DNA of 64,000 nt from Escherichia coli. Its GTDB lineage: Bacteria > Pseudomonadota > Gammaproteobacteria > Enterobacterales > Enterobacteriaceae. The notes beneath the pieces were generated by a model. That model was given only the letters and a program-made list of their open reading frames with translations. It was not told the DNA's origin and did not search any database. The position numbers and the translations under genes are program-made. Location: the NCBI RefSeq assembly GCF_017348835.2, contig NZ_CP071375.1. One strand, given 5' to 3'. Positions 3,613 through 9,476 of the stretch are shown one piece after another. Each line of letters starts with the position of its first letter. The first letter of the stretch is position 1.

Positions 3613-3628
3613 TACGGTGATAACAACA

Positions 3629-5950
3629 ATGAAAAAATTAACCATAGGCTTAATTGGTAATCCAAATTCTGGCAAGACAACCTTATTTAACCAGCTCACT
3701 GGCGCACGTCAGCGTGTAGGTAACTGGGCTGGCGTTACCGTCGAACGTAAAGAAGGGCAATTCTCCACCACCGATCATCAGGTCACGCTGGTGGACCTGC
3801 CCGGCACCTATTCTCTGACCACCATCTCATCGCAGACCTCGCTCGATGAGCAAATCGCCTGTCACTACATTTTGAGTGGCGACGCCGACCTGCTGATTAA
3901 CGTGGTGGATGCGTCTAACCTTGAGCGTAACCTGTACCTAACGCTACAACTGCTGGAACTCGGCATTCCCTGCATCGTGGCACTGAACATGCTCGACATT
4001 GCCGAGAAGCAAAATATTCGTATTGAAATTGATGCTCTGTCGGCGCGTCTTGGCTGCCCAGTGATCCCGCTGGTTTCAACCCGTGGTCGCGGTATTGAAG
4101 CGCTCAAGCTGGCGATTGATCGCTATAAAGCTAACGAGAATGTGGAACTGGTGCATTACGCACAGCCGCTGCTCAACGAAGCAGATTCACTGGCAAAAGT
4201 GATGCCTTCCGACATCCCGCTGAAACAACGTCGCTGGCTGGGCCTGCAAATGCTGGAAGGCGATATCTACAGCCGCGCCTACGCCGGTGAAGCGTCGCAG
4301 CATCTGGATGCCGCCCTCGCCCGTCTGCGTAATGAGATGGACGATCCGGCGCTGCACATTGCCGATGCGCGTTACCAGTGCATTGCTGCCATCTGTGATG
4401 TGGTAAGCAACACCCTGACGGCAGAACCCAGCCGTTTCACCACTGCGGTAGATAAAATCGTGCTCAACCGTTTCCTCGGTCTGCCGATTTTCCTCTTTGT
4501 GATGTACCTGATGTTCCTGCTGGCTATCAACATCGGCGGGGCGTTACAGCCGCTGTTTGACGTCGGCTCCGTGGCGCTATTTGTGCATGGTATTCAATGG
4601 ATTGGCTACACGCTCCACTTCCCGGACTGGCTGACTATCTTCCTCGCCCAGGGCCTGGGTGGCGGTATTAACACCGTGCTGCCACTGGTGCCGCAGATCG
4701 GCATGATGTACCTGTTCCTCTCCTTCCTTGAGGACTCCGGCTATATGGCGCGTGCGGCGTTTGTGATGGACCGTCTGATGCAGGCGCTGGGCTTGCCGGG
4801 GAAATCCTTTGTACCGCTGATCGTTGGTTTCGGTTGTAACGTACCGTCGGTAATGGGCGCACGTACGCTTGATGCACCGCGTGAACGTCTGATGACCATC
4901 ATGATGGCACCGTTTATGTCCTGCGGTGCGCGTCTGGCTATCTTCGCAGTATTCGCGGCTGCCTTCTTCGGGCAGAACGGTGCGCTGGCGGTCTTCTCGC
5001 TGTATATGCTGGGTATCGTAATGGCGGTGCTGACTGGCCTGATGCTCAAGTACACCATCATGCGCGGTGAAGCGACGCCGTTTGTCATGGAGCTGCCGGT
5101 CTACCATGTACCACACGTTAAAAGCCTGATTATCCAGACCTGGCAGCGCCTGAAAGGCTTCGTTCTGCGTGCTGGTAAAGTGATTATCATCGTCAGCATT
5201 TTCCTGAGCGCTTTCAACAGCTTCTCGTTGAGCGGGAAAATCGTCGATAACATCAACGACTCGGCGCTGGCTTCCGTCAGCCGGGTGATCACCCCGGTCT
5301 TCAAGCCGATTGGCGTGCATGAAGATAACTGGCAGGCAACAGTTGGCCTGTTTACGGGTGCAATGGCGAAAGAAGTGGTGGTGGGTACACTCAACACCCT
5401 CTACACCGCAGAAAATATTCAGGACGAAGAGTTCAATCCGGCGGAATTTAACCTCGGTGAAGAGTTGTTCAGCGCGGTAGATGAAACCTGGCAGAGCCTG
5501 AAAGACACCTTCAGCCTTAGCGTACTGATGAACCCCATTGAAGCTAGCAAAGGCGACGGCGAAATGGGTACCGGGGCGATGGGTGTGATGGATCAGAAAT
5601 TCGGTAGCGCAGCTGCCGCATACAGCTACCTGATTTTCGTCCTGCTGTATGTACCGTGCATCTCGGTGATGGGAGCCATCGCCCGTGAATCAAGCCGTGG
5701 CTGGATGGGCTTCTCCATCCTGTGGGGGTTGAATATCGCTTACTCGCTGGCAACATTGTTCTATCAAGTCGCCAGCTACAGCCAGCATCCAACTTACAGC
5801 CTGGTGTGCATTCTGGCGGTTATCCTGTTTAACATCGTAGTTATCGGACTGCTGCGCCGCGCGCGTAGCCGGGTGGATATCGAACTGCTGGCAACCCGCA
5901 AGTCGGTAAGCAGTTGCTGCGCAGCCAGCACCACCGGTGATTGCCATTAA
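3629..5950 (+). CDS. feoB: Ferrous iron transporter FeoB (GTPase plus permease)
   Basis: ORF-track frame 3617.. trimmed to [25 protein letters not shown] (G-protein P-loop); 773 aa; polytopic C-terminal region. Confidence 0.92.
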
Positions 5951-6388: not shown

Positions 6389-7267
6389 ATGAGCAAAAAG
6401 CAGAGTTCCACCCCACACGATGCGCTGTTCAAACTCTTTTTACGCCAACCGGACACGGCACGCGATTTTCTTGCGTTTCATTTACCGGCACCCATTCACG
6501 CGCTCTGTGATATGAAAACCCTCAAGCTGGAGTCGAGCAGCTTTATTGATGACGATCTGCGTGAAAGCTATTCCGACGTGCTGTGGTCGGTGAAAACGGA
6601 ACAAGGACCAGGATACATCTATTGTCTGATTGAACATCAAAGCACCTCAAACAAACTGATCGCATTTCGCATGATGCGCTACGCCATTGCCGCAATGCAA
6701 AACCACCTGGATGCCGGACACAAAACGTTGCCGATGGTAGTGCCATTGTTGTTTTATCACGGTATTGAAAGCTCCTATCCCTATTCGCTGTGTTGGCTGG
6801 ATTGTTTCGCCGATCCCAACCTGGCAAGGCAGCTTTATGCCTCTGCATTTCCGCTGATTGATGTCACCGTCATGCCTGATGATGAAATCATGCAGCACCG
6901 ACGCATGGCGCTGCTGGAGTTAATTCAAAAACATATTCGTCAACGCGACCTGATGGGGCTGGTAGAGCAAATGGCCTGCTTATTAAGTAGTGGATACGCT
7001 AATGACAGACAAATCAAAGGGCTGTTTAATTACATCTTGCAAACCGGCGATGCGGTACGTTTTAACGATTTTATCGACGGCGTTGCCGAACGTTCACCGA
7101 AACACAAGGAGAGTTTAATGACTATTGCGGAAAGATTGCGGCAGGAGGGGTTTCAGAAAGGTATACGTGCTATTGCCAAAACCATGCTGGATGCCGGAGT
7201 CCCTCTTGAGGACGTTCTGCGATTTACCGGGCTGTCAGAGGAAGAATTGGCTGCGGCGAACCAGTAG
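6389..7267 (+). CDS. rpnA: Rpn-family recombination-promoting nuclease / transposase-like protein (YhgA)
   Basis: 292-aa ORF at the expected position after feoC; matches recollection of YhgA. Confidence 0.8.
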
Positions 7268-7283
7268 ACACTATCCCCTGCTT

Positions 7284-7329
7284 AAGTGCTACTTTATGCT
7301 ATCTTGCATGTAACACAAAGTAGCACTTA
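7284..7329. promoter_or_regulatory. 13-bp perfect inverted repeat (taagtgctacttt / aaagtagcactta); candidate operator for the downstream toxin-antitoxin pair, or yhgA terminator
   Basis: Arms at 7284-7296 and 7317-7329 separated by 20 bp; sits 10 bp upstream of the antitoxin start codon. Confidence 0.45.
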
Positions 7330-7338
7330 GGAACTGAT

Positions 7339-7608
7339 ATGCAGACAGTGAAATTACGGCAACAAGGAGGAGCCATGATCGTTACTATCCCACGAGATCT
7401 TGCCACCGATCTTGGCTAGTCACCGGGCACAGAGCTTACCGTGGAGAAAAAGGGCGATAGCGTTAATTTACGCGCAACCGGGCACAAACCGCGTGGGCGT
7501 CTTACCGTCGCGCAGTTGTTGAGCCAGATCGATGAAAGCGAAATTACGCAGCTAAATCAGTCCACAGAAGGATGGGCTGAAGGGAAAAAAGGTAATGAAG
7601 CATGGTAA
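7339..7608 (+). pseudogene. PemI/MazE/ChpS-like (AbrB/SpoVT fold) antitoxin interrupted by an in-frame TAG at 7417-7419
   Basis: Hand translation MQTVKLRQQGGAMIVTIPRDLATDLG*SPGTELTVEKKGDSVNLRATGHKPRGRLTVAQLLSQIDESEITQLNQSTEGWAEGKKGNEAW; SD agga upstream of ATG 7339; 3' end overlaps toxin start by 7 nt. Confidence 0.7.
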
Positions 7609-7970
7609 AGGCACGGACGCCACATCGTGGTGAGATCTGGTATTTTAACCCTGATCCGGTTGCCGGGCATGAACTTCGGGGTCCACATCATTGCATTGTG
7701 GTAACGGACAAAAAACTCAACAATGTTTTAAAAGTTGCTATGTGCTGCCCGATTACAACAGAGGCAAATGCAGCACGTTCCACAGGGGTGACGGTGAACG
7801 TCCTCCCCCATGATACGCAAACCGGTAACCTGCATGGCGTTGTGCTCTGTCACCAGCTAAAAGCTGTCGATCTTATTGCCCGTGGCGCTAAATTTCATAC
7901 CGTTGCCGATGAAGCATTGATTAGTGAGGTGATCGGTAAACTGGTGAATTTAATCGACCCACAACAGTAG
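7602..7970 (+). CDS. PemK/MazF/ChpB-family endoribonuclease toxin
   Basis: 122 aa; RGEIWYFNPDPVAGHELRGPHHCIVV...CCPITT...LHGVVLCHQLKAVDLIAR parallels MazF/ChpBK/PemK; no counterpart at this position in my recollection of K-12. Confidence 0.8.
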   Translation: MVKARTPHRGEIWYFNPDPVAGHELRGPHHCIVVTDKKLNNVLKVAMCCPITTEANAARSTGVTVNVLPHDTQTGNLHGVVLCHQLKAVDLIARGAKFHTVADEALISEVIGKLVNLIDPQQ

Positions 7971-7984
7971 CCCTGACTTATCAC

Positions 7985-9476
<1,492 letters not shown>

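What the first reader, a model, noticed from the sequence alone, without database searches (positions are those of the whole stretch)
7268..7984. PemIK/MazEF-like toxin-antitoxin cassette inserted between yhgA and bioH
About 700 bp lies between yhgA and bioH, which are nearly abutting in K-12 as I recall. It encodes a PemI/MazE-like antitoxin frame overlapping (ATGgtaA, 7 nt) a 122-aa PemK/MazF-family toxin, preceded by a 13-bp perfect inverted repeat. The toxin ends only 14 bp from the bioH stop codon.
Basis: partly seen in the sequence, partly recalled or inferred. Interest (0 to 1): 0.6.

Follow-up and report, generated by a model that had tools for sequence, protein, structure and literature searches.

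The report
Decaying Kid/MazF-type toxin-antitoxin cassette
Between rpnA (yhgA) and bioH this E. coli strain carries a rare but already annotated Kid/MazF-type toxin-antitoxin gene pair whose antitoxin gene is broken by a stop codon while the toxin gene is still whole, so it is an ordinary module caught in an unusual state of decay.

Summary
Window 7268-7984 carries a two-gene type II toxin-antitoxin cassette between rpnA/yhgA and bioH. It has a 13-bp perfect palindrome, a 7-nt ATGGTAA gene overlap, a 122-aa PemK/MazF-family toxin (Pfam 4e-19; predicted fold closest to Kid) and a 14-nt gap to bioH.

RefSeq annotates it as a pseudogene in the identical strain PE164.

The cassette occurs in 43 of 5426 complete E. 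coli genomes, always at this site. It is also at this site in Shigella flexneri and in a 92%-identical Escherichia locus, probably E. marmotae. Relatives lie at other sites and on plasmids in Pantoea, Pectobacterium, Rahnella, Serratia and Arsenophonus.

The nonsense allele is real. It appears in at least eight independent assemblies and on several flank haplotypes. It was seen only on one toxin allele, which carries Y30H next to the residue aligned with the catalytic Arg of MazF; His was found at that position in none of 142 relatives.

Best reading: a defused, decaying module, with an attenuated and translationally uncoupled toxin that is tolerated without its antitoxin. It is a new member of a known kind, and interest is low to moderate.

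The parts
6389..7267 (+). rpnA (yhgA), recombination-promoting nuclease and left neighbour. Its last ~250 nt encode the intragenic antitoxin RpnA_S (internal ATG at 7118) and are haplotype-linked to the cassette.
   Evidence: ORF list; RefSeq annotation of the identical locus. Identity to K-12/O157 is 82-90% over 6968-7267, against 99-100% to other cassette carriers. SD dG is -8.5 before ATG 7118. RpnS biology: PMC10400941.
7283..7329 (.). Palindromic candidate operator: 13-bp perfect arms at 7283-7295 and 7317-7329. Other alleles have 16-bp perfect arms; here G7296A shortens them.
   Evidence: The shuffle maximum was 10 in 2000 trials. The same half-site, AGTGCTAC..GTAGCACT, lies upstream of the Pectobacterium homologue. 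Operator function is inferred.
7339..7608 (+). MazE/AbrB-type antitoxin pseudogene: an 89-codon frame interrupted at codon 27.
   Evidence: Translation. PF04014 E=3.1e-5 on the read-through product. RefSeq pseudogene note 'internal stop'. Intact in O145:H28, A35, S. flexneri and L018.
7417..7419 (+). In-frame TAG (W27*). Base 7418 is A here and G (TGG) in all intact alleles.
   Evidence: The same base is present in PE164, F2_81 and loci L014-L017, L019 and L020.
7441..7608 (+). Possible restart ORF (GTG, 55 aa). It would contain the conserved C-terminal part of the antitoxin, which is presumed to bind the toxin. There is no evidence that it is expressed.
   Evidence: ORF list. The SD is weak, dG -2.5, which about 40% of random positions match or beat.
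7602..7970 (+). PemK/MazF-family (Kid-like) toxin ORF, 122 aa and intact. It carries the lineage-specific changes Y30H (7689 C) and S52T (7755 A), plus E54.
7602..7608 (+). ATGGTAA overlap of the toxin start codon with the antitoxin stop codon (translational coupling signal).
   Evidence: Sequence. The toxin's own SD is weak, dG -4.5.
7985..8755 (-). bioH, the convergent right neighbour, 14 nt from the toxin stop codon.

Best explanation
The locus is a chromosomal type II toxin-antitoxin operon of the Kid/ChpBK/MazF type.

In its intact form (inferred by homology):
- A MazE/AbrB-fold antitoxin binds the palindrome upstream and represses the operon.
- The antitoxin's C-terminal tail neutralises the toxin.
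- The toxin is a sequence-specific endoribonuclease translated by coupling through the ATGGTAA overlap.

The module is an old, patchily retained accessory element of Escherichia at the rpnA-bioH junction.

In this strain it is decaying in an unusual order. The antitoxin gene is knocked out by a W27* nonsense mutation, while the toxin ORF is still whole.

The most likely reason the cells tolerate this is that the toxin was already weakened by Y30H, which sits next to the residue aligned with the catalytic Arg of MazF and Kid. In addition, the premature stop uncouples toxin translation from antitoxin translation, and the toxin has only a weak ribosome-binding site of its own. The cassette is therefore a defused remnant here, not a working addiction or stress module.

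Shown: the anatomy, the family and fold, the nonsense mutation and its spread, and the order of mutations. Inferred: RNase activity, operator function, attenuation by Y30H and reduced toxin translation.
For: Family and fold:
- PemK_toxin, E=4.3e-19.
- Kid is the best solved relative by sequence and by predicted fold.
- MazE_antitoxin, E=3.1e-5.

Operator:
- The 13-bp perfect inverted repeat exceeds anything in 2000 shuffles.
- It is 16 bp in other alleles, and the half-site is shared with the Pectobacterium homologue.

The nonsense allele is real and circulating:
- It is identical in PE164 and F2_81.
- It is also in six further assemblies (L014-L017, L019, L020), including one from an ENA metagenome sample.
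- These six differ from the window by 1 to 37 SNPs over the 3.4-kb locus, all outside the cassette except one intergenic base (7981).

Order of events:
- L018 carries the same cassette with TGG at codon 27. It differs inside the cassette only at 7418 and at the intergenic base 7981.
- L013 also pairs this toxin allele with an intact antitoxin.
- The toxin changes therefore predate the stop.

Specificity:
- All 85 contigs read for three other toxin alleles (O145:H28, P0025, S. flexneri) have an intact 89-aa antitoxin gene.
- In 21 subfamily homologues (55-94% identity), 40 of 122 columns are invariant. The window departs at only two of them, Y30H and S52T.
- Among 121 wider representatives, position 30 is P, Y, F, R or L and never H. 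Position 29 (R 82, H 34) aligns with MazF R29 and Kid R23. Catalytic roles are taken from PMC8887465.

Translation:
- The toxin's SD is weak, dG -4.5.

Decay of the module in other lineages:
- The toxin is frameshifted in O145 strain RM12275-C1.
- Truncated toxins are recorded in S. flexneri.
Against: - No activity data exist for any member of this subfamily, so attenuation by Y30H is a guess based on conservation.
- S52T changes to the commonest residue in the wider family (T in 96 of 121) and is probably neutral. Only one substitution is therefore suspicious.
- With two lineage-specific replacements, the chance that both fall in invariant columns is about 0.1 even with no constraint.
- About half of the carriers of this toxin allele keep an intact antitoxin. 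That could mean the toxin is still dangerous.
- Losing the repressor should raise transcription of the operon, which works against the idea of low toxin expression.
- W27* is one mutational event, so its link to the H30 allele has no statistical weight.
Confidence: 0.5

Rival explanations
1. The toxin is still active but is neutralised by an N-terminally truncated antitoxin. After termination at TAG 7417-7419, ribosomes would reinitiate at the in-frame GTG at 7441, 21 nt downstream. The 55-aa product would lack the DNA-binding and dimerisation strands but keep the C-terminal toxin-binding tail. The module would then have lost autoregulation but kept neutralisation.
For: - The in-frame GTG ORF 7441-7608 is intact.
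- Its C-terminal segment (PRG..TV..LL..ID..EI..LN...G.E.W) is conserved in the E. coli, Pantoea and Pectobacterium antitoxins.
- No further disruptive mutation lies downstream of the TAG in any carrier.
- From established knowledge of MazE and Kis (my recollection, not tested here), the C-terminal region is what contacts and inhibits the toxin.
Against: - The SD before GTG 7441 is weak, dG -2.5; about 40% of random positions are as good or better.
- The W27* cassettes are all identical, so the absence of further mutations says nothing about selection.
- Monomeric tails usually neutralise poorly.
- No gene caller predicted this ORF in L014-L020.
Confidence: 0.15
2. The toxin is active but is kept harmless in trans. 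A paralogous antitoxin encoded elsewhere in the genome or on a plasmid (ChpS/ChpBI, MazE or PemI/Kis) would cross-neutralise it, possibly together with low expression.
For: - The toxin is a clear relative of Kid (34-36% identical) and of ChpBK (34% identical; NF007320 E=6.5e-17).
- PemK-family genes lie on thousands of Escherichia plasmids.
- Cross-talk between Kis/Kid and the chromosomal Chp systems has been reported (my recollection). Reviews on cross-interaction turned up, but I did not read them.
Against: - The read-through antitoxin matches no solved MazE or Kis chain, even at E<=10.
- It scores only 16 bits against the PemI/MazE model, so cognate-like recognition by those antitoxins is doubtful.
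- The rest of the genome is outside the window and was not examined.
Confidence: 0.15
3. The TAG is not a true knockout. It could be a sequencing or assembly error, or it could be read through by a suppressor, so that a full-length antitoxin is still made and the cassette is a normal working toxin-antitoxin pair.
For: The rest of the antitoxin frame is undamaged.
Against: - The same A at 7418 is present in two complete genomes and six further independent assemblies from NCBI and ENA.
- RefSeq flags it as an internal stop.
- Natural amber suppressors are rare in wild E. coli (general knowledge), and none was looked for outside the window.
Confidence: 0.03
4. The orphan toxin is retained because it is useful on its own. 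Freed from its antitoxin and repressor, it could serve as a constitutively expressed, low-activity RNase, or as a phage-triggered abortive-infection effector alongside the neighbouring RpnA defence nuclease.
For: - The toxin ORF is intact in all W27* carriers, and the allele occurs on several flank haplotypes.
- The neighbour rpnA encodes a toxic nuclease with an intragenic antitoxin, and a plasmid-encoded relative of it protects E. coli against phages (PMC10400941).
- Homologues sit inside a CRISPR-Cas locus in Pectobacterium.
Against: - There are no PADLOC defence-model hits for the toxin, the antitoxin or RpnA.
- The W27* cassettes are identical, so their retention may simply reflect youth.
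- Within Escherichia the toxin evolves under weak constraint, with pairwise dN/dS of 0.35-1.26 on very few sites.
Confidence: 0.07

Closest known systems
Kis-Kid (parD of plasmid R1) / PemI-PemK (R100)
   Same: - Kid is the best solved relative of the toxin: phmmer E=1.6e-16 and Foldseek TM 0.78/0.89 at 34% identity.
- The operon grammar is the same: antitoxin first, overlapping genes and an upstream palindrome.
- Kid His17 is conserved as H23.
   Different: - Identity is only about 35%.
- Kid's catalytic Arg73 and Asp75 align with L83 and H85 (roles from PMC8887465).
- This module is chromosomal, not plasmid-borne.
- The antitoxin is not detectably similar to any solved Kis or MazE chain.
- The antitoxin is a pseudogene here.
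ChpBI-ChpBK (chpSB) of E. coli K-12
   Same: - Both are chromosomal Kid-like toxins, 34% identical.
- Both have Leu at the position of Kid Arg73, within the shared GVVL motif.
   Different: - The NCBIfam ChpB equivalog scores 61.7 bits against a cut-off of 129, so this is not an orthologue.
- It lies at a different chromosomal site.
- It has H29-Y30 (H29-H30 in this allele) where ChpBK has Arg-Pro.
MazE-MazF (chpA) of E. coli
   Same: - Same fold (5cr2, TM about 0.8).
- The numbering happens to coincide: MazF R29 and T52 align with H29 and S/T52 here.
- The antitoxin has the AbrB/MazE N-terminal domain.
   Different: - Identity is 28% in the MAFFT alignment and 22-24% in the fold alignments.
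- NF007386 scores 43 bits against a cut-off of 120.
- The catalytic Arg is replaced by His, as in 34 of 121 wider relatives.
Uncharacterised PemK/MazF subfamily of Enterobacterales (RefSeq WP_000237584.1 in O145:H28, WP_053883633.1 in PE164, and relatives in E. marmotae, S. flexneri, Pantoea, Pectobacterium, Serratia, Rahnella, Rouxiella, Gallibacterium and Arsenophonus)
   Same: - This is the group the window toxin actually belongs to, at 55-94% identity.
- The group has invariant H29, Y30 and S52 and the motif VVLCHQ.
- The partner antitoxin is the same length, 89-91 aa.
   Different: - The window allele has Y30H and S52T.
- Its antitoxin is truncated by W27*.
- No member has been studied experimentally as far as my searches show.

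Membership tests
PemK/MazF toxin family (Pfam PF02452) | Significant match to the family profile over most of its length | tested here: met
   E=4.3e-19, residues 9-114 matched to model positions 2-105 of 109.
PemK/MazF toxin family (Pfam PF02452) | SH3-like beta-barrel fold of Kid/MazF/CcdB | tested here: met
   AlphaFold2 model with pLDDT 87.5 and pTM 0.82. The top 50 Foldseek PDB hits are all Kid, MazF, PemK or MoxT chains, with TM 0.7-0.9.
PemK/MazF toxin family (Pfam PF02452) | Catalytic pair equivalent to MazF Arg29 and Thr52 (B. subtilis Arg25 and Thr48) | tested here: inconclusive
   Thr52 is present (Ser in sister alleles). Arg is replaced by His29 in the whole subfamily and in 34 of 121 wider relatives. 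Whether His can substitute is unknown.
PemK/MazF toxin family (Pfam PF02452) | Endoribonuclease activity and growth inhibition when expressed without antitoxin | not testable with these tools
   Needs expression and RNA-cleavage assays.
MazE/AbrB/SpoVT-type antitoxin (Pfam PF04014) | Profile match of the N-terminal swapped-hairpin DNA-binding domain | tested here: met
   PF04014 E=3.1e-5 over residues 9-41 of the read-through translation. TIGR01439 (AbrB) E=1.7e-4, below its cut-off.
MazE/AbrB/SpoVT-type antitoxin (Pfam PF04014) | Uninterrupted reading frame that encodes both the DNA-binding and the toxin-binding parts | tested here: not met
   TAG at codon 27 (7417-7419). The frame is intact in sister alleles.
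Type II toxin-antitoxin operon | Two small co-directional genes, antitoxin first, with overlapping or abutting stop and start codons | tested here: met
   7339-7608 and 7602-7970, with the ATGGTAA overlap.
Type II toxin-antitoxin operon | Palindromic operator at the promoter, bound by the antitoxin or the complex (autoregulation) | tested here: inconclusive
   The palindrome is significant and its half-site is conserved in Pectobacterium. However, the consensus scan found no sigma-70 promoter, and binding cannot be tested here.
ChpBK / MazF / Agrobacterium MazF equivalogs (NCBIfam NF007320, NF007386, NF052489) | Score above the curated equivalog cut-off | tested here: not met
   61.7 bits against 129, 43 against 120 and 91.7 against 150. 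It is not an orthologue of any named E. coli or Agrobacterium MazF-type toxin.
Kid (R1 parD) orthologue | Kid catalytic residues His17, Arg73 and Asp75 | tested here: not met
   H23 aligns with His17, but L83 and H85 replace Arg73 and Asp75 (roles from PMC8887465).
Known anti-phage defence systems (PADLOC-DB) | Match to any defence-system protein model | tested here: not met
   No hits at E<=0.01 for the toxin, the antitoxin or RpnA.

The most novel reading that the evidence does not exclude
A natural, circulating E. coli allele in which a still-active MazF/Kid-type toxin persists without its cognate full-length antitoxin. It would be held in check by a reinitiated C-terminal antitoxin fragment or by cross-talk with another antitoxin. 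That would make it a natural experiment on how toxin-antitoxin pairs can lose autoregulation or rewire partners. It sits next to the RpnA toxin with its intragenic antitoxin RpnA_S; in the E. marmotae-like locus the MazE-like antitoxin has even captured the RpnA_S translation start.
Probability: 0.2. Interest if true: 0.5.

Novelty: new member of a known kind. Interest (0 to 1): 0.27.

Why it matters
- The locus adds an uncharacterised Kid-like subfamily, with His-Tyr where MazF, Kid and ChpBK have Arg-Pro, to the E. coli and Shigella accessory toxin-antitoxin repertoire. Its carriers include STEC O145:H28 and S. flexneri.
- It offers matched natural alleles that differ by a single base: L018 with TGG and this window with TAG. 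These could be used to test how a cell survives loss of an antitoxin.
- Otherwise it is a routine accessory module that automated annotation already recognises.

Tried and rejected
- Mobile-element insertion: rejected. There are no direct repeats at the junctions and no similarity between the 26-28-nt empty-site spacer and the cassette ends apart from the final CAC.
- Sigma-70 promoter and intrinsic terminator scan of 7150-8100: nothing found. The promoter remains unassigned.
- S52T and G54E as inactivating changes: rejected. Thr is the commonest residue at position 52 in the wider family. Position 54 is variable and is Glu in the E. marmotae-type sequences.
- His-Tyr motif as a novel active site: rejected as a novelty claim. 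His occupies position 29 in 34 of 121 representatives.
- Solved-structure search with the antitoxin: no hit even at E<=10.
- PADLOC defence models: no hit.
- Phage collection: only two distant Paenibacillus phage hits.
- Literature searches for this locus (bioH/yhgA/toxin-antitoxin, and E. coli toxin-antitoxin surveys): no description found.
- Pairwise dN/dS: too few sites to be informative.
- Not attempted: a genome-contig scan for species distribution, because source names already gave the distribution; and a check of the rest of the PE164 genome for paralogous antitoxins or amber suppressors.

Full report
**1. What is in the sequence**

The window is E. coli. Region 7268-7984 is 100% identical to the pig isolates PE164 and F2_81.

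The gene order is as follows:

| Feature | Coordinates | Strand |
|---|---|---|
| feoB | 3617-5950 | + |
| feoC | annotated after feoB in the identical PE164 locus | + |
| rpnA/yhgA | 6389-7267 | + |
| spacer (71 nt) | 7268-7338 | |
| antitoxin-like frame (89 codons) | 7339-7608 | + |
| toxin ORF (122 codons) | 7602-7970 | + |
| gap (14 nt) | 7971-7984 | |
| bioH | 7985-8755 | - |

The start of the toxin ORF overlaps the stop of the upstream frame as ATGGTAA (7602-7608).

The spacer holds a perfect 13-bp inverted repeat, TAAGTGCTACTTT, at 7283-7295 and 7317-7329. In 2000 shuffles of the spacer the longest arm was 10 bp.

The antitoxin frame contains an in-frame TAG at 7417-7419. Its translation reads MQTVKLRQQGGAMIVTIPRDLATDLG*SPGTEL.... 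RefSeq annotates this gene in PE164 as a pseudogene with an 'internal stop' and annotates the toxin as intact.

**2. Family**

Toxin:
- It matches Pfam PemK_toxin at E=4.3e-19.
- Its best solved relative is Kid of plasmid R1 (phmmer E=1.6e-16).
- An AlphaFold2 model (pLDDT 87.5) superposes best on Kid 1m1f (TM 0.78/0.89). Klebsiella, E. coli, Deinococcus and S. aureus MazF/PemK chains follow.
- It falls well below the NCBIfam equivalog cut-offs for ChpBK, MazF and the Agrobacterium MazF. It is therefore not an orthologue of a named toxin.

Antitoxin, translated through the stop:
- It matches MazE_antitoxin (PF04014) at E=3.1e-5.
- It matches no solved chain by sequence.

**3. Distribution and history**

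Only 43 of 5426 complete E. coli genomes carry the cassette. It is always a single chromosomal copy at rpnA-bioH. More than half of the 43 carriers are STEC O145:H28 or its close relatives.

A K-12-like genome and an O157:H7 genome have just 26-28 nt of unrelated sequence between the two stop codons. I saw no target-site duplication and no mobility gene.

The cassette is also at this site in two other places:
- Shigella flexneri (L029).
- An Escherichia locus that is 92% identical to the window across both flanks and cassette (L007). This is probably E. marmotae, because cluster members are named that way.

The cassette is therefore an old presence/absence polymorphism of the genus rather than a recent insertion.

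More distant members (55-74% identity) occur elsewhere:
- Inside a type III secretion cluster next to YefM/YoeB in a contig that encodes the Pantoea sp. toxin.
- Between cse1 and cas3 of a type I-E CRISPR-Cas locus in Pectobacterium.
- On plasmids of Rahnella, Serratia and Arsenophonus.

This is the usual behaviour of a small mobile toxin-antitoxin module.

The Pectobacterium copy has the same half-site upstream (AGTGCTAC ... GTAGCACT). The other E. coli alleles have a 16-bp perfect palindrome, and G7296A shortens it to 13 bp in the window's allele group. This supports an operator role for the palindrome, but that role remains inferred. The simple scan found no consensus sigma-70 promoter.

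**4. The broken antitoxin**

The TAG is not an assembly artefact. The same A at 7418 is present in PE164, F2_81 and six further independent assemblies (L014-L017, L019, L020). These differ from the window by 1 to 37 SNPs over 3.4 kb, all outside the cassette except one intergenic base (7981).

The exact toxin protein of the window is recorded on at least 159 contigs. Among the places read, roughly half carry W27*. The rest carry an intact antitoxin:
- L018 has the same cassette with TGG at codon 27. Inside the cassette it differs from the window only at 7418 and at the intergenic base 7981.
- L013 pairs the same toxin with an O145-like antitoxin.

The toxin's lineage-specific changes therefore arose before the nonsense mutation.

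As a control, every one of 85 contigs read for three other toxin alleles has an intact 89-aa antitoxin gene.

Decay in the usual direction, toxin first, is seen in O145 strain RM12275-C1, where the toxin is frameshifted. It is also seen in truncated S. flexneri toxin records.

**5. Why an intact toxin ORF is tolerated**

I aligned the window toxin with 21 subfamily homologues at 55-94% identity. Forty of the 122 columns are invariant, and the window departs at exactly two of them, Y30H and S52T. Both are derived relative to all other Escherichia alleles. E54 is shared with the E. marmotae-type sequences and lies in a variable column.

- Position 29 (His) aligns with the catalytic Arg of MazF (R29) and its equivalent in Kid (R23).
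- Position 52 aligns with MazF Thr52. Catalytic roles are as summarised in PMC8887465.

I also checked 121 representatives of the wider family:

| Position | Residues observed |
|---|---|
| 29 | R 82, H 34 |
| 30 | P 69, Y 19, F 13, R 9, L 4; never H |
| 52 | T 96, S 20 |

S52T is therefore probably harmless. Y30H is unprecedented and sits next to the presumed catalytic residue.

The toxin's own Shine-Dalgarno pairing is weak (dG -4.5). Its translation therefore probably depends on ribosomes arriving through the ATGGTAA overlap. In the W27* allele those ribosomes stop 185 nt upstream.

My preferred explanation (confidence about 0.5) is that the toxin was weakened first. That allowed the antitoxin knockout to arise and spread, and the polarity of the nonsense mutation lowers toxin synthesis further.

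Rival explanations:
- Reinitiation at the in-frame GTG 7441 could produce a 55-aa C-terminal antitoxin fragment. The SD there is only dG -2.5.
- Another antitoxin such as ChpS, MazE or PemI could neutralise the toxin in trans. This could not be tested from the window.
- The orphan toxin could be useful on its own.
- The stop codon could be an error or could be read through. The independent assemblies effectively exclude an error.

None of these can be settled without experiments.

**6. Comparison with known systems and verdict**

The cassette works like Kis-Kid, PemIK and ChpSB. It has an AbrB-fold antitoxin and repressor, a Kid-fold RNase, overlapping genes and a palindromic operator.

It is not an orthologue of any of them:
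- Identity to Kid and ChpBK is about 35%.
- Kid's Arg73 and Asp75 are not conserved.
- It scores below every equivalog cut-off.

It belongs to an uncharacterised Enterobacterales subfamily that PGAP already labels generically. I found no paper on this locus.

It is a new member of a known kind. The only unusual feature is the natural antitoxin-null, toxin-intact allele. Interest is low to moderate (0.27).

**7. Side observation that explains the divergent left flank**

The last ~250 nt of rpnA are only 82-90% identical to K-12 and O157, but 99-100% identical among cassette carriers. This segment encodes RpnA_S, the intragenic antitoxin of the RpnA nuclease. RpnA_S starts at ATG 7118 behind a strong SD and is known to be hypervariable (PMC10400941).

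In the E. marmotae-like locus, the MazE-like antitoxin begins MTIAERLRQ|QGG. It has acquired the RpnA_S ribosome-binding site and first nine codons by recombination at a short shared sequence (ATTACGGCA), and it has no palindrome of its own.

Noticed in passing
window 6968-7267 (rpnA 3' end; internal ATG at 7118): The last ~250 nt of rpnA are 82-90% identical to K-12 and O157 but 99-100% identical to other cassette carriers. This is the RpnA_S intragenic-antitoxin region (SD AAGGAG plus ATG 7118), which PMC10400941 reports as hypervariable. Two toxin-antitoxin-like systems therefore sit side by side.
   Followed up: partly
L007 3716-4007 (Escherichia locus 92% identical to the window, probably E. 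marmotae): The MazE-like antitoxin starts MTIAERLRQ|QGGAMIV. The RpnA_S ribosome-binding site and first nine codons are fused to it at the shared sequence ATTACGGCA. Only about 19 nt separate it from the rpnA stop codon and there is no palindrome. RpnA in this locus has a (GVQQ)x3 four-residue repeat.
   Followed up: partly
L005 3016-3234 (E. coli strain 746): A third haplotype at the rpnA-bioH junction. An alternative RpnA C-terminus is followed by about 220 bp. This stretch holds a degenerate second RpnS-like ORF (MTDAEREYLISYLIGYLLDRRLEALDIAKRML*) and a remnant of the K-12-type rpnA 3' end.
   Followed up: partly
L010, L011, L012 (Pectobacterium): The homologous toxin-antitoxin pair (64% toxin identity) lies between cse1 and cas3 of a type I-E CRISPR-Cas locus. 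The same AGTGCTAC/GTAGCACT half-sites are upstream.
   Followed up: no
L009 3732-5470 (contig from sequencing run SRR10136595 that encodes the Pantoea sp. toxin P0009): The homologous pair sits inside a type III secretion gene cluster, followed by a YefM/YoeB pair. This looks like a small toxin-antitoxin islet.
   Followed up: no
L021 635-1002 (E. coli O145 RM12275-C1); L002 1-1683 (O145:H28 RM13514): In RM12275-C1 the toxin gene is frameshifted while the antitoxin is intact, which is the opposite order of decay. In RM13514 feoB is annotated as frameshifted.
   Followed up: no
window 7361-7377: A strong Shine-Dalgarno-like AAGGAGGA (dG -11.4) lies 6 nt before the in-frame ATG 7375 (Met13 of the antitoxin). 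A product starting there would lack the first beta-strand of the AbrB fold. It may be incidental, since it encodes the conserved QGG.
   Followed up: no
window 7296: G-to-A change, specific to this allele group, inside the palindrome. It shortens the perfect arms from 16 to 13 bp and turns TGTGCT into TATGCT, which resembles a -10 hexamer more closely. It could alter repression or promoter strength.
   Followed up: no
L029 1867-2655 (Shigella flexneri): bioH is called as 262 aa instead of 256. Its reading frame abuts the toxin stop codon, so the bioH 3' end differs in this lineage.
   Followed up: no
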